From contig OZ024764.1 in assembly GCA_964016885.1 (NCBI GenBank), positions 14,570,001-14,634,000 of the forward strand: a stretch of DNA of 64,000 nucleotides, in the 5' to 3' direction. The translations under genes and the position numbers were made by a program. Positions 5,549 through 49,254 of the stretch are shown here, piece by piece. The notes beneath the pieces are model-generated. The model did no database searches, was not told the DNA's origin, and saw only the letters and a program-made list of their open reading frames with translations. The stretch is from Eledone cirrhosa (Eukaryota). Positions within the stretch are counted from its first letter, which is position 1. Every line of letters begins with the position of its first letter.

Positions 5549-5666
5549 ATACAGCGCTCAGTTGAAGGAGATTGAATTGGAGAAGAAGGCCCTCATCAAC
5601 CAAGTAGAGTCAAAATCAGGGGCCCTACAAGAGAAAGAGTCTGCATTTTCCGGTCAATCTGATCAG
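5549..5666 (+). CDS. CLIP1: CLIP-170/CLIP-190 family coding exon (coiled coil); first exon visible in the window
   Basis: Acceptor ttcatcag and donor CAG|gtat. Reads (R)YSAQLKEIELEKKALINQVESKSGALQEKESAFSGQSDQ and ends in phase 0, matching the exon at 6842. Confidence 0.75.
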
Positions 5667-6841: not shown

Positions 6842-7730
6842 GTGAAGGAACTACAGAAAGAAAACAGCCGATTAAAAGAAAGTTCAGAATCTCTGAGTAC
6901 AGAAAACCAACAAATGTTGGAGACGGTGAAGGCCTTAGAGGAACAAATGGCTGAGAAGAGTGCTACACCAGCCCTTGAAAACCAGCAACTGTTGGAGAAG
7001 GTGAAGGCCTTAGAGGAACAAATGGCTGAGAAGAGTGCTACACCAGCCCTTGAAAACCAGCAACTGTTGGAGAAGGTGAAGACTTTAGAGGAACAATTGG
7101 CCGAGAAGAGTGCTACACCAGCCCTTGAAAACCAGCAACTGTTGGAGAAGGTGAAGACTTTAGAGGAACAATTGGCCGAGAAGAGTGCTACACCAGCCCT
7201 TGAAAACCAGCAACTGTTGGAGAAGGTGAAGACTTTAGAGGAACAATTGGCCGAGAAGAGTGCTACACCAGCCCTTGAAAACCAGCAACTGTTGGAGAAG
7301 GTGAAGACTTTAGAGGAACAATTGGCCGAGAAGAGTGCTACACCAGCCCTTGAAAACCAGCAACTGTTGGAGAAGGTGAAGACTTTAGAGGAACAAGTGG
7401 CTGAGAAGAGTGCTACACCAGCCCTTGAAAACCAGCAGTTATTAGAGAAGGTGAAGACGTTAGAGGAAGAATTAACACAAAAGAGTGCTACATCGGCCCT
7501 GGAAAACCAGCAGTTATCAGAGAAGGTGAAGGGCTTAGAGGAAGAATTAACACAAAAGAGTGCTGCATCGGCCCTGGAAAACCAGCAGTTATCAGAGAAG
7601 GTGAAGGGCTTAGAGGAACAATTGGTGCAGAAGAGTGCAGCCCCAGTCCTGGGGGCACAATTTGCAGAGAAGACTGCTACACCGGCCAATCATTCCTTAG
7701 CTAATGGAGATGCCAGTGTTTCTATCGAAG
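6842..7730 (+). CDS. CLIP1: CLIP1-family coding exon, coiled coil with 10 x 25-aa repeat
   Basis: Acceptor ttattacag and donor GAAG|gtaatt. 889 nt open, VKELQKENSRLKESSESL...DASVSIE; starts in phase 0 and ends in phase 1. Confidence 0.85.
6902..7651 (+). repeat. Coding minisatellite, 75 bp x 10 (ENQQLLEKVKTLEEQLAEKSATPAL)
   Basis: Period of 75 nt read directly (gactttagag at 7081 and 7156); central copies are identical. Confidence 0.95.
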
Positions 7731-9863: not shown

Positions 9864-9913
9864 AAAATGCTGTTTTAGAGCTGAAGAAAGAAAAGGAGGA
9901 ACATATAATTGAA
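9864..9913 (+). CDS. CLIP1: CLIP1-family small coding exon
   Basis: Pyrimidine tract plus ccacag acceptor, donor GAA|gtaagt. Reads (E)NAVLELKKEKEEHIIE; phase 1 in and phase 0 out fit both neighbours. Confidence 0.85.
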
Positions 9914-11503: not shown

Positions 11504-11622
11504 ATTGAGTTACTGAAGTCCGAGATTGTCTATCTTCACATGCAGAACGAGAATCTAAAGTCTCAGGTGAATGTTCTACTGAACGGGGATGGTAAAGATG
11601 ACAACATTAACGCTGATGCAAG
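11504..11622 (+). CDS. CLIP1: CLIP1-family coding exon (end of coiled coil)
   Basis: Acceptor tttttcacag, donor AG|gtaac. IELLKSEIVYLHMQNENLKSQVNVLLNG resembles the CLIP-170 segment IDFLNSVIVDLQRKN (from recall). Phase 0 in, phase 2 out. Confidence 0.88.
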
Positions 11623-14020: not shown

Positions 14021-14184
14021 GAGAGAACCTATAACGACACTGCGACTATTCTGTGATATCTGTGAAGAGTTTGACAAACACGACACTGAGGACTGTCCCC
14101 ATCAGACCATGAGTGATAGCCCTCCCTGTACACAGTACCATGGGTCTCCGAAGCAGGAGCGCGACTACTGTGAAATATGTGAAG
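14021..14184 (+). CDS. CLIP1: CLIP1-family exon: zinc knuckle 1 and first half of zinc knuckle 2
   Basis: Acceptor gttgcag, donor GAAG|gtaagt. [47 protein letters not shown] matches the CLIP-170 C-terminal metal-binding region (RLFCDIC..FD.HDTEDCP.Q). Phase 2 in, phase 1 out. Confidence 0.95.
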
Positions 14185-26611: not shown

Positions 26612-27060
26612 ATATCTATCTATCTATCTAAGGCGGGTAAAATTCTCGAGATCCATGGACGAGTTCTCTCCAGCGGTCTCTGTCCCTCATTATCGCTGCC
26701 ATATCCTGCATCTCCAACAGACCAGTGTCTGTCCTTAGGGCATCAACATATGTTAACCTTGGTCTTCCTCTTCTAGTGTGTCCATGTAGGGGCTCCCAAA
26801 GGAGCACTGAGTGCAGTGTCAACTCTGGATGTCGGTGAGCATGTCCAGCCAACCTCAGTCTCCTCTGTGTCACTTTTGAGCTGACTTTTGGGATGCTCCC
26901 ATACAGCTCTGAGTTCTTCATCCTCAGTGTATACTGATTAATGTTCAGAGCCATCCTCAGCATTCTCGTGTAGCACCCATCCACCATCTGAGTGAGTCTC
27001 TTGGTCAGTGTCCAAGTCTCAGACCCATACAGCAGCACAGACTCCACTACAGCAATGAAG
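26612..27060 (-). mobile_element. RTE-clade LINE 3' end (5'-truncated)
   Basis: ESVLLYGSETWTLTK...RRLRLAGH..RH...LLWEP..G.TRRGRPRLTY...DRDRWR is a typical RTE C-terminus; (TAGA)n tail. The same 3' end occurs at 1-30 on +. Confidence 0.92.
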
Positions 27061-27091
<31 letters not shown>

Positions 27092-27097
27092 AATAAC

Positions 27098-27285
27098 AGG
27101 CGGTGGATTGGCAGTATCGGTAGAGGGTCGGATGCCATGCTTTCCAGCATAGTTACGTCCCTTAACGATCTGAGTTCAAATCCCGCTGAGGTTAACTTTG
27201 CCTTTCATCCTTACGGGGTCGATAAAATAAAGTACCAGTAATGCACTGGGTAATTGCTGGCCTTGTGCCAAAAAGTAGAAATAAT
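27098..27285 (+). mobile_element. tRNA-derived SINE (Meta-domain-like)
   Basis: tggcagtatcggtagag (A box), gagttcaaatcc (B box), ctttgcctttcatccttacggggtcgataaaataaagtacc; many copies (near 2800, 30430, 32720, 46490). Confidence 0.85.
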
Positions 27286-28269: not shown

Positions 28270-29558
28270 GTTATGCAAGAAATGCTTAGGATTATCCTGG
28301 CTGCAGTAATGGTTAATTACTACACTGGATAGAGTTGACGTACGGTGAGGGGTTACTCAACGAGTTATGGAAGAATAGTTGAAGAAACTCAGTTCCTGAT
28401 CCTTCTGTATTCCGGAGTGTAGATAAAGAATGAATAATAACAGGTAGACATCATAAAAAGGTAATTTATTCTGTGTGCTTCCAAATGTTTCCACGGTGGT
28501 TATACAGCCTAGTTATGCTATGTGCAAATTTATAACTATTTGCAAAACTCAATTATCAAATGCTGTGACCACTGTTTCCTCAGAGCAGAATGGTTAAAAT
28601 GTAAAATGTAAATACCCTTAAGTGAGGTTATTGAGGAAGATAGAGTAGAAAAGAAGGGAAGAGGGAGAGAGAGAGAGATATGCTTGGGTTGGAGAAATGG
28701 GAGAGAGTGGTTTGTAGAATACAGATATCTTAATCAAAATGTTGTGGTAGGGGTTTTATTATACTGGTTACTCTCAAAGCGACAACCTTAAGCTTGATAG
28801 TTAAGGTTGGAATTATTTATTGCCACAGAGGGCAGGTTCATAGATGTGGAGAGGGAGGGAGGTGGGGCGAGAGATAGAGAGGGGACAGACAAAAGCTATG
28901 GGATGGGTGTACATCGAGTTCATAGTTGTAGGCTACAAAGTGCACTTAAGTGTCCATTTATAGTGATAAGCAGGGTACTGTCTTGTAGTGTGGGGGTGGG
29001 GGATATAGTTAAGAAGTTGTTATTGAGAGAAATTAGCGAGAAAGCAATGTTAAGTTATTTTATAGTGAGAGAATTTAGCCTTCAGTTTGTGGTTGCAGTA
29101 TAATGATCGTTCGATTCTGTCATTTAGTAATTTATTTTGGGATTTTAAGATGTAAAAGAGTTCAAGGTTACATAACCTGCAGTACTTCAATCCACTCCGA
29201 TATGCACTAGCGCTGGAAAGTATATCCCATTTCAAGGTGAACTGTTGGTTGCGTTCATGGAGTTGCCAGGTCTTATTGGCGAGTGTGATCACAAAACGGT
29301 GATTAGGATGTTTAATTGAGAATCGATGACGATACCAGCGAGATTTACAGGAGGTAGTGGTAGACCCGATGTAATACCATTTCTGGTCGTTCGCTTTGAC
29401 AGTGCATTGATAAACAATGTTGGACTTTAGGCATTTATTCTTCAATGGACATCTTTCAGGTAGGTGGCAGTTACAGTTTTTATTGTGGGTAGCAGGTATA
29501 CCATGGATAGGTTAGGATAAATTACCTTTTTATGATGTCTACCTGTTATTATTCATTC

Positions 29559-31743: not shown

Positions 31744-31790
31744 CATTTGGACACCGGACCTTCGACTGTGATGTGGACGAGACGTTTTGA
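31744..31790 (+). CDS. CLIP1: CLIP1-family canonical terminal coding exon
   Basis: Long poly-T tract plus ttctag acceptor. Phase 1 gives (A)FGHRTFDCDVDETF*, completing the second CCHC knuckle and the acidic-aromatic ETF end typical of CLIP-170. Confidence 0.93.
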
Positions 31791-47586: not shown

Positions 47587-47757
47587 CATGAGGGTTGGTT
47601 GAAAAGTTCATAGGCTGACCAAGATACTCTCATGGAATGACCGAATGTGGTTTATTCTTCAACATAGTCCTTGGAATGAAACAATACATGCAAGATTTCA
47701 CAGCTCTAGCATCACTGATTCATAGTCATCCTATGAACTTTTCAGCTGCCTCTCGTA
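47587..47757. mobile_element. Mariner-type MITE monomer
   Basis: TIRs gagggttggttgaaaagttcatagg and cctatgaacttttcagctgcctctcgTA. Confidence 0.75.
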
Positions 47758-47805
47758 TATTTATTTGTTGTTGTTGTTTTTTTTTTTTTTATTTGTTTTT
47801 TTCAG

Positions 47806-48803
47806 AAATTGGGATTGAATTCCTTGAGGGAGAAATTTGCCCCCATGGCAGAGTTGCACCTGTCGCAGAGGAGAAGGGTAGTGCCGGTGGTGGGGGTGAT
47901 GGTGGTGCTGTTGCTATGGCAACTACTACAGGTGGTGGAGGAGAGAAAAAGAGCAAGAAGAAGAAAAAGAATAATAAGGCCAAGTTCATAAAGGGGGGGG
48001 CCACTACCCCCTCCACCACCACCACCACCACCACCCCTCCACCCTTCAGAGACGGCGACGGTGGTGGTGGTGTGAGCTCAGTGGAAGAGGGGCTGAGGCT
48101 GCAGGAAAAGAACAACTCGCCGGCCACCACTACCTCCTTCACTCCCTCCCCACCGTCCACCTCCACCTCCCCTCCGTCTTCACCGCTGTCGCCCCACCAC
48201 CACCACCACCACCACCACCACGACAACTTGCCCGCCTCCGACGAAAACGTCGAGCTCGCCGAAATTGCGATGGAGGCCTCGTCCGAGATGCGGTTCATCG
48301 GCGACGACACCACGCTGGAAGGTGAGGACGCTTTGCTGTCGATAGAAGCCGACGATGGCGTGAGCGAGACGTCATTATCAACAGCTCCAGCAGCGGAAGA
48401 AGAGAAGAAGAAGAAAAGCAAGAAGAGTGTCAAGGAAGAGAAACTGAAGAAGAAAAAGAAGAATGGCGGCGGTGATGATGATGATGATGGTGGTGGTGGT
48501 AAAGTGGCAGAGGTGGGAGAGGACGGTGGTGAGGGGGACGATGGTGTGGTGATGGAAGCTGTTGAAGCTGACCTGAGTTTCCTGACTGCCCAGCCGGGTA
48601 GTACCGTGTCACCTGCCACCACCACCACCACCACCACCCCTCTGGGAACGCCACCAACACCGCCACCGTCACCACCACCACCACCACCACCCCCACAAAC
48701 AACAACAACAGCAGCAGCAGCAGCAGCAGCAGCGAAACCACCAACGGCCAAAATTGAAAGCCCTACAATCGCTGAAAAGGTTGATCATTGTATTATATGT
48801 TAA
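47806..48803 (+). CDS. Candidate alternative terminal exon (low-complexity, Lys-rich and acidic, ends CIIC*)
   Basis: Strong poly-T/ttcag acceptor; phase 1 start; ~330 open codons; GC/CpG-rich against AT-rich flanks; includes non-repetitive stretches such as DENVELAEIAMEASSEMRFIGDDTTLEGEDALLSIEADD. Confidence 0.6.
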
Positions 48804-49254
48804 GTTTGTTAAATTTTAACACCTGCCCTTTTCCACCCCTCTCTTCCACCCCTCTCTTCCACCCCTCACTTCCACCCCATCTCTTCCACCCCATCTCTTC
48901 CACCCCTCACTTCCACCCCATCTCTTCCACCCCTTCTTCCACCCTTCTCTTCCACCCCATCTCTTCCACCCTTCTCTTCCACCCCATCTCTTCCACCCCT
49001 TCTTCCACCCTTCTCTTCCAACCCTCTCTTCCACCCCCTCTTCCACCCTTCTCTTCCACCCCTCTCTTCCACCCCCTCACTTCCACTCCCACACTTCCAC
49101 TCCCTCACTTCCACTCCCTCACTTCCACCCCTCACTTCCACCCCTCTCTTCCACCCCTCTCTTCCACTCCTTACTTCCACCCCCTCACTTCCACCCCCTC
49201 ACTTCCACCCCTACTTACAGCCCTATTGCTTTTAAATGACTCTAAATCTGCAGC

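What the first reader, a model, noticed from the sequence alone, without database searches (positions are those of the whole stretch)
47806..48803. Candidate alternative last exon replacing the CLIP-170 ETF tail with a polybasic, CaaX-ending extension
Seen: a strong acceptor 16 kb beyond the DETF* exon, in the same phase (1) as the donor at 14184. Splicing 14184 to 47806 gives ...YCEICE-E-IGIEFLEGEICPH, i.e. C-x2-C-x12-C-x-H in place of the second CCHC knuckle. About 310 disordered residues follow, with two Lys clusters (KKSKKKKKNNK, KKKKSKKSVKEEKLKKKKK), ending DHCIIC*. Known: CLIP-170 knuckles and the ETF end bind CAP-Gly domains (autoinhibition, p150Glued), and C-terminal CaaX boxes direct prenylation. 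Inference: mutually exclusive terminal exons could switch this +TIP between a dynactin-binding form and a lipid-anchored membrane-microtubule linker.
Basis: partly seen in the sequence, partly recalled or inferred. Interest (0 to 1): 0.8.

Follow-up and report, generated by a model that had tools for sequence, protein, structure and literature searches.

The report
Mollusc CLIP-170 with lipid-anchor tail
In this octopod, as in gene models of many other molluscs, the microtubule-tip protein CLIP-170 has a second last exon that swaps its dynactin-binding end for a long acidic tail ending in a lipid-attachment signal, which would likely tie growing microtubule tips directly to membranes.

Summary
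The exon is real and belongs to CLIP-170/CLIP1. Splice sites, phase, the 331-codon frame and the terminal CIIC all check out. A contig in public run X1 has exactly the length expected of a spliced 14184>47806 mRNA (475 upstream letters; letters not shown). Four O. sinensis RefSeq isoforms end in the orthologous tail.

Long tails start at the same junction and end in CaaX in 27 mollusc species, this one included: a chiton, snails, bivalves and octopods. In one search, 55 of 67 named mollusc rows and 0 of 53 other rows end so. Five species have both tail types annotated.

All 27 tails are net acidic, the lysine clusters are absent in O. sinensis and lie 110 and 271 residues from the cysteine, and the C-x12-C-x-H spacing is not conserved. 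Prenylation is predicted (yeast screens), not shown; membrane tethering is inferred. Six literature searches and the scan's notes showed no description of this isoform.

The parts
5549..5666 (+). CLIP-170 coding exon (coiled coil)
   Evidence: tblastn with O. sinensis P0004, 64% identity; AG/GT ends
6842..7730 (+). CLIP-170 coding exon with a 75-nt (25-aa) tandem repeat, 9.8 copies at 6902-7638
9864..9913 (+). 50-nt CLIP-170 coding exon
   Evidence: best ungapped match to the 18-residue O. sinensis segment, score 47 against next best 11; AG/GT ends
11504..11622 (+). 119-nt CLIP-170 coding exon
   Evidence: tblastn 71% identity
14021..14184 (+). Last shared exon: zinc knuckle 1 and the CxxC half of knuckle 2; phase-1 donor for both last exons
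   Evidence: Pfam CLIP1_ZNF above cut-off; 89% identity to O. sinensis
31744..31790 (+). Proximal last exon, coding part: completes knuckle 2 (GH-x4-C) and ends DETF-stop; canonical CLIP-170 end
   Evidence: sequence; same pattern as the 15-residue tails; expression in this species not tested
47806..48803 (+). Distal last exon, coding part: acidic low-complexity tail (331 codons after the junction codon) ending in CaaX (CIIC) and TAA
   Evidence: orthologous to the O. sinensis X1-X4 tail; contig lengths in run X1
48789..48800 (+). CaaX box CIIC, with Asp two residues before the Cys
   Evidence: Cys at -4 in 27 of 27, I/V/L at -2 in 27 of 27, D/E at -6 in 26 of 27 species

Best explanation
The CLIP-170 gene has two mutually exclusive last exons, and the distal one replaces half of knuckle 2 and the ETF end with a long acidic, likely disordered spacer ending in a CaaX box that is predicted to be prenylated and would likely tether the microtubule-tip-binding dimer to membranes instead of to dynactin. 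Step 1, shown or nearly so: both exons splice in phase to the donor at 14184, and the distal junction matches a contig length to the base. Step 2, from mammalian data: p150Glued and LIS1 need knuckle 2, so the distal form should lose them, while head-to-tail autoinhibition through knuckle 1 may remain. Step 3, predicted: the cysteine is farnesylated (CxxS in 25 of 27 species); octopod CIIC may also accept geranylgeranyl. Step 4, inferred: there is no adjacent basic or palmitoylation signal, so anchoring would rely on two lipids per coiled-coil dimer (dimer state recalled), which favours internal membranes or reversible binding. The spacer (106-748 residues) evolves freely; only its two ends are constrained. 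The arrangement likely dates from the molluscan ancestor.
For: Junction: X1 record 4 lays on 47806-47999 at its positions 476-669. The 475 letters before equal 142+50+119+164, the spliced upstream exons counted from 7589, where a k=31 contig must start after the repeat. 30-letter overlaps between records 4/5 and 5/6 fit k=31. Orthologue: 4 of 4 full-length O. sinensis isoforms in the 6-member cluster end in the same 11 residues. Breadth: 55 of 55 long tails among the 120 rows listed end in CaaX; 55 of 67 named mollusc rows against 0 of 53 others. The 27 tails form 10 groups with no BLAST link between groups once the last 12 residues are removed, yet all keep C-x-[IVL]; the background chance of that is 0.002 per tail. 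Both tail types are annotated in Liolophura, Gigantopelta, Mya, Mytilus galloprovincialis and Ostrea edulis. Prenylation: all 9 motifs score above the cut-off of 3 in a yeast screen of all CXXX sequences (Ydj1 HM 3.6-5.0); CIIC has Ras HM 19.8, like Ras2 CIIS 19.6 (PMC10320760 supplement). Without farnesyltransferase CIIC scores 0.073 at 37 C, in the under-0.2 class of canonical geranylgeranylated motifs (PMC11304957). Knuckle roles: PMC2172020.
Against: No prenylation, localisation or binding experiment exists for any of these proteins. [quoted passage not shown] The junction letters were not displayed; X1 is one run whose kind is not on record and it may come from the assembled animal. The 20 residues before the CaaX are neutral or acidic in most species (net -5 to +3), which does not favour membranes. 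RefSeq models are predictions. Use of the ETF exon in this species was not seen, and no ETF isoform was in the O. sinensis cluster. Several molluscs show only ETF-type models (Biomphalaria 12 of 12, Physella 5 of 5, H. asinina 5 of 5 full-length, single models of Lymnaea, two Elysia, Solemya).
Confidence: 0.62

Rival explanations
1. The tail is prenylated, but the lipid docks into a protein rather than a bilayer, as farnesylated Spindly does on the RZZ complex. The distal isoform would then reach kinetochores or another scaffold without dynactin.
For: No adjacent membrane second signal and an acidic residue at -6 in 26 of 27 species. Spindly's CAAX farnesylation promotes RZZ binding, and CLIP-170 is listed among outer-kinetochore proteins (bioRxiv 10.1101/279398, passages).
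Against: No conserved surface besides the last six residues; spacer length varies sevenfold. No mitosis-specific evidence was obtained.
Confidence: 0.2
2. In octopods this is a replacement rather than a switch: the CaaX form is the working protein and the ETF exon is minor or silent. This is compatible with the best explanation on mechanism and differs only on regulation.
For: X1 record 4 appears to run through the 14184 junction unbroken, so no ETF branch survived in that graph (inference). All 4 O. sinensis isoforms seen carry the CaaX tail.
Against: The ETF exon keeps a good acceptor, GH-x4-C and DETF. Contigs drop rare variants. Clusters at 90% split isoform sets (O. edulis). Five other molluscs have both forms. 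RefSeq numbers long isoforms first.
Confidence: 0.25
3. The terminal cysteine is not prenylated and serves as a metal ligand, redox site or peptide-binding end; the isoform is simply a dynactin-blind CLIP-170, like vertebrate CLIP-115.
For: Octopod CIIC is also CxxC; nothing was measured.
Against: Cys is fixed at -4 with I/V/L at -2 and Ser last in 25 of 27 species across 10 unalignable tail groups, the textbook farnesyltransferase pattern; yeast scores are positive.
Confidence: 0.1
4. The frame at 47806-48803 belongs to another gene or is a chance open frame in repeat-rich DNA.
For: The window is about half tandem repeat (32,674 of 64,000 bases masked); the exon is rich in triplet repeats and has no Pfam family above cut-off.
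Against: Exact contig-length match; orthologous tail on CAP-Gly-bearing O. sinensis models; same junction and ending in 26 other species.
Confidence: 0.02

Closest known systems
CLIP-170/CLIP1 (vertebrates), CLIP-190 (Drosophila)
   Same: Same gene family: coiled coil, knuckle 1, and an ETF-type last exon; CAP-Gly domains in the O. sinensis orthologue. Domain roles from PMC2172020 and PMC4395129.
   Different: The distal isoform lacks half of knuckle 2 and the ETF end and gains an acidic tail with CaaX; none of 53 rows not named as molluscs had one.
RefSeq CLIP1-like isoforms of molluscs (e.g. O. sinensis XP_036370729.1, O. edulis XP_056001936.1, L. sinensis XP_064612124.1)
   Same: They are the same isoform, already predicted in public annotation.
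   Different: The names carry no note of the CaaX tail (one is called nesprin-1-like); no paper describing it appeared. The window's tail is longer than that of O. sinensis (332 against 184) and adds lysine clusters.
CLIPR-59/CLIP3
   Same: A CAP-Gly protein with a C-terminal membrane-targeting region (PMC2174080 abstract).
   Different: Separate gene with ankyrin repeats; its anchor is palmitoylation (recalled; search listing only), not a CaaX box, and there is no exon switch against an ETF end.
KRAS4A/4B and CDC42 alternative last exons
   Different: There both forms are lipidated GTPases; here the switch is between a protein-binding end and a lipid signal, with no adjacent basic patch.
Spindly (and, recalled, CENP-E and CENP-F)
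   Same: Long coiled-coil, microtubule-related proteins with a farnesylated CaaX end (for Spindly).
   Different: Unrelated sequences; their lipid acts in binding RZZ; no alternative ETF end.

Membership tests
CLIP-170/CLIP1 | Two N-terminal CAP-Gly domains | tested here: inconclusive
   Upstream of the window. Present in the O. sinensis orthologue (2 stretches), whose downstream exons match the window at 64-89% outside the repeat exon.
CLIP-170/CLIP1 | First CCHC zinc knuckle | tested here: met
   PF16641, 36.7 bits against cut-off 25
CLIP-170/CLIP1 | Second knuckle plus acidic-aromatic ETF end (gene level, proximal exon) | tested here: met
   Exon 31744-31790 in frame with the 14184 donor
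CLIP-170/CLIP1, canonical isoform | Second knuckle plus ETF end in the distal isoform | tested here: not met
   Replaced by the 332-residue tail
CaaX prenylation substrates | Terminal C-a-a-X with permissive a2 and X | tested here: met
   CIIC before the stop; 27 of 27 orthologues; yeast scores above cut-off
CaaX prenylation substrates | Prenyl group actually attached in vivo | not testable with these tools
   Needs labelling or mass spectrometry
KRAS4B-type polybasic plus farnesyl anchor | Basic cluster directly before the CaaX | tested here: not met
   Net charge 0 over the 20 residues before CIIC; clusters 110 and 271 residues away; absent in O. sinensis
CLIPR-59/CLIP3 | Ankyrin repeats before the CAP-Gly domains | tested here: not met
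   No ankyrin family in the Pfam scan of the orthologue P0004
Remodelled second zinc knuckle | Conserved Cys/His ligands supplied by the distal exon | tested here: inconclusive
   E-F-H-x-x-C in 17 of 17 bivalves; C-x-H or CCH at varying spacing in the chiton and two octopods; none in 3 Haliotis. Zinc binding not tested.

The most novel reading that the evidence does not exclude
Since their common ancestor, molluscs have carried a splice switch that turns CLIP-170 from a dynactin loader into a lipid-anchored plus-end tracker, a literal membrane-microtubule linker. Mixed dimers with one ETF end and one prenylated end could load dynein-dynactin onto specific membranes at microtubule tips, in neurons for example, with tissue-regulated exon choice.
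Probability: 0.3. Interest if true: 0.85.

Novelty: new variant of a known kind. Interest (0 to 1): 0.68.

Why it matters
CLIP-170 was named as a linker between membranes and microtubules, but the first membrane-targeting domain in the family was found on a different gene, CLIPR-59 (PMC2174080 abstract). A phylum-wide isoform of CLIP-170 itself that carries a prenylation signal makes the linker idea directly testable with one point mutation or a farnesyltransferase inhibitor. It also shows a way to uncouple plus-end tracking from dynactin by choice of last exon. Only the junction and the last six residues are held constant across four mollusc classes, which points to strong selection on the lipid signal. 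The isoform sits unremarked in public annotation of oysters, mussels, scallops, abalones and octopus.

Tried and rejected
No genome is held for this window, so upstream CAP-Gly exons and exon order in other molluscs were not checked. Searching the tail's middle (residues 138-200) against longer proteins gave 0 of 109 candidates, a weak search that missed even the O. sinensis orthologue. The ESM Atlas gave no usable hit. BLASTP of the tail against O. sinensis scored only the last 17 residues well; the middle blocks appear in the global alignment. The look-up of sequencing runs listed no holder on record as RNA, which is no evidence either way. Read laying did not show the loose end at 47806 (239 rows hidden; 47754-47805 skipped as repeat) and gave no depth over 48625-48822. 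X1 record 8 would end at 48851 if collinear, 9 letters short of the 48860 expected from the window: compatible with reading through the stop, not proof. X2 and X3 look like DNA (low depth, short overhangs; inference) and add nothing on splicing. Depth over 47600-47763 comes from a high-copy repeat. No fold or complex job was run: a single low-complexity chain folds poorly, and a failed complex is not evidence. Rejected: KRAS4B-type polybasic anchor; conserved C-x12-C-x-H site; separate gene. The scan's own notes held nothing on this gene and two loose analogies.

Full report
Observation. The window holds the 3' part of a CLIP-170/CLIP1 gene of an octopod; the closest named protein is O. sinensis CLIP1, 87-89% identical over the knuckle exon. 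Exons found: 5549-5666, 6842-7730, 9864-9913, 11504-11622 and 14021-14184, all with AG/GT ends. The donor at 14184 is phase 1. Two downstream acceptors fit it: 31744, which completes knuckle 2 and ends DETF, and 47806, which opens 331 further codons ending DHCIIC-stop at 48803. Of 71 pyrimidine-rich AG sites read in this phase, 8 give Cys at -4, and only 47806 and its internal twin 48052 give a product over 100 residues.

Is the distal acceptor used? Three public runs hold the exon, all from one study, none on record as RNA. In X1, record 4 is 731 letters long and lays on 47806-47999 at its positions 476-669; none of it is listed on 47600-47753, although the tool bridged a skipped repeat in other records. 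The spliced upstream exons give 164+119+50 = 333 letters. A k=31 contig must begin at 7589, the first unique 31-mer after the tandem repeat in exon 6842-7730, which adds 142 letters; the total is 475. This equals the unlaid part to the base. Neighbouring records overlap by 30 letters, as k=31 requires. I infer that X1 is RNA-derived and carries the 14184>47806 junction. Limits: the letters were not displayed, it is one run, and it may come from the assembled animal. Use of the ETF exon was not tested.

Orthologue. The four full-length O. sinensis RefSeq isoforms in the six-member cluster (the other two members are fragments without the C-terminus) all leave the shared sequence at the same junction and end in the same 11 residues as the window's tail. 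Three short middle blocks also align; the lysine clusters and the His run fall in gaps.

Breadth. A search with the O. sinensis C-terminus among 1.84 billion representatives returned three more full-length proteins with long CaaX tails, 3 of 31 rows of 400 residues or more: Haliotis rubra, Ostrea edulis and Ylistrum balloti. A profile of five mollusc proteins (four with the CaaX tail) found 2,513 proteins, of which the best 120 were listed. Among these, 55 have a long tail after the knuckles and all 55 end in C-x-[IVL]-x; they are 55 of 67 named mollusc rows, against 0 of 53 other rows. With cluster members the tail is seen in 27 species counting this one: 1 chiton, 7 gastropods, 17 bivalves and 2 octopods. 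Both tail types are annotated within Liolophura (4 CaaX, 1 ETF-type among 5 full-length), Gigantopelta (8, 1), Mya (11, 1), M. galloprovincialis and O. edulis. Only ETF-type ends were seen for Biomphalaria (12 of 12), Physella (5 of 5), H. asinina (5 of 5 full-length), and single models of Lymnaea, two Elysia species and Solemya; four partial snail rows lack the knuckles. H. asinina lacking it while three congeners have it suggests annotation gaps, so loss in heterobranch snails is not proven. The nemertean Lineus showed no CaaX among 19 models. Caveats: ranking favours molluscs, representatives favour long isoforms, and no annelid or brachiopod row was named, so 'mollusc-specific' is provisional.

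What is conserved. Tails run 106-748 residues, are all net acidic (-2 to -107), and are poor in order-promoting residues (15-21% in six checked). Without their last 12 residues they fall into 10 groups with no BLAST link between groups at E 0.001. Yet Cys is at -4 in 27 of 27, I/V/L at -2 in 27 of 27, Ser is last in 25 of 27 (Cys in both octopods), and D/E is at -6 in 26 of 27. The background chance of C-x-[IVL] is 0.002 per tail. Species are related, so the 10 groups are the fairer count. A shared junction and a shared six-residue ending suggest one origin before chitons and other molluscs split (inference; no tree was built). At the start of the tail all 17 bivalves have E-F-H-x-x-C, which could rebuild a variant knuckle; the chiton and octopods have C-x-H or CCH at other spacings; Haliotis has neither.

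Prenylation. In a yeast screen of all 8,000 CXXX sequences, all nine motifs seen here score above the authors' cut-off of 3 (Ydj1 HM: CIIC 3.62, CVIS 3.62, CVVS 3.81, CRVS 4.39, CTIS 4.45, CIVS 4.47, CTVS 4.79, CKIS 4.81, CKLS 4.98). CIIC has Ras HM 19.8, against 19.6 for CIIS and 8.4 for CVLS (PMC10320760: abstract, first part of Results, section 20 and supplement rows). The cut-off is permissive, since a majority of CXXX sequences react. CIIC's raw enrichment is low (0.59), like canonical CVLS (0.49) and CVIA (0.41). Without farnesyltransferase, CIIC scores 0.073 at 37 C, in the under-0.2 class that the authors describe as mainly canonical geranylgeranylated motifs, while CVIS, CVVS, CRVS and CKIS score 0.67-1.57 (PMC11304957: passages and supplement rows). 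So farnesylation is predicted across molluscs, and octopod CIIC may take either lipid. These are yeast reporter data on four-letter motifs, not on this protein.

Mechanism. In mammalian CLIP-170, p150Glued and LIS1 bind through knuckle 2, and the protein's own head binds mainly through knuckle 1 (PMC2172020: abstract and passages; domain summary in PMC4395129: passages). The distal form keeps knuckle 1 and loses half of knuckle 2 and the ETF end. It should therefore stop loading dynactin but may stay autoinhibitable. There is no basic patch or extra cysteine next to the CaaX in the window (net 0 over the preceding 20 residues; lysine clusters 110 and 271 residues away). A single farnesyl binds membranes weakly and CLIP-170 is a parallel dimer (both recalled), so two lipids on long flexible spacers are the likely anchor. 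I put the whole chain at 0.62: exon and junction about 0.97, prenylation about 0.85, membrane tethering as the main role about 0.75 given these. The main rival is lipid-mediated protein docking as for Spindly on RZZ (bioRxiv 10.1101/279398: passages; supplements not seen).

Comparison and novelty. The gene is an ordinary CLIP-170 orthologue; the distal isoform fails the canonical C-terminal features and is a new variant. CLIPR-59 is the known membrane-targeted relative, but it is another gene with another anchor (PMC2174080: abstract; palmitoylation recalled, listing only). The isoform exists in RefSeq predictions without comment. Searches for CLIP-170 with CaaX (25 of 32 listed), CLIP-190 isoforms (20 of 24), CLIP1/farnesylation/CAP-Gly (25 of 261), CLIP-170/mollusc/splicing (4 of 4), CLIP-170/prenylation/isoform (14 of 15) and CAP-Gly linker with mollusc terms (20 of 6,674, none holding the protein name) showed no title or abstract start describing it. 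I saw listings only, and most subscription journals are not in the library. The scan's notes held nothing on this gene and two analogies on other genes.

Verdict. Observation confirmed, interpretation partly supported and extended from one species to four mollusc classes. New variant of a known kind; interest 0.68.

Noticed in passing
window 6902-7638: A 75-nt unit repeated 9.8 times (94% matches) inside a coding exon lengthens the coiled coil by about 220 residues; each 25-residue unit holds a proline. O. sinensis has a single copy.
   Followed up: partly
window 48051/48052: A second in-frame acceptor inside the distal exon would give a 250-residue tail without the first lysine cluster. X1 record 4 reads across it from 47806.
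   Followed up: no
bivalve proteins, e.g. P0196, P0204, P0246, P0248: All 17 bivalve tails begin E-F-H-x-x-C, which with the shared CxxC gives C-x2-C-x3-H-x2-C, a possible variant zinc knuckle.
   Followed up: partly
P0234, P0231, P0229, P0224, P0047: Heterobranch snails (Biomphalaria, Physella, Lymnaea, Elysia) show only ETF-type ends; possible loss of the distal exon in that lineage, or an annotation gap.
   Followed up: partly
window 29053-29511, minus strand: Open frame with a weak GIY-YIG match below Pfam's cut-off, likely a retroelement fragment in the intron.
   Followed up: partly
window 26631-27152, minus strand: Open frame resembling the end of a LINE reverse transcriptase (recalled likeness); no Pfam hit.
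   Followed up: partly
window 47600-47763: High-copy repeat fragment just upstream of the distal acceptor (very high summed contig depth in all three runs).
   Followed up: no
window 32422, 32478, 32836 and 49517, 49822: Candidate polyadenylation hexamers after the proximal and distal exons; not tested.
   Followed up: no
P0055: A Haliotis rubra CLIP-170 isoform with the CaaX tail is named nesprin-1-like in RefSeq.
   Followed up: no
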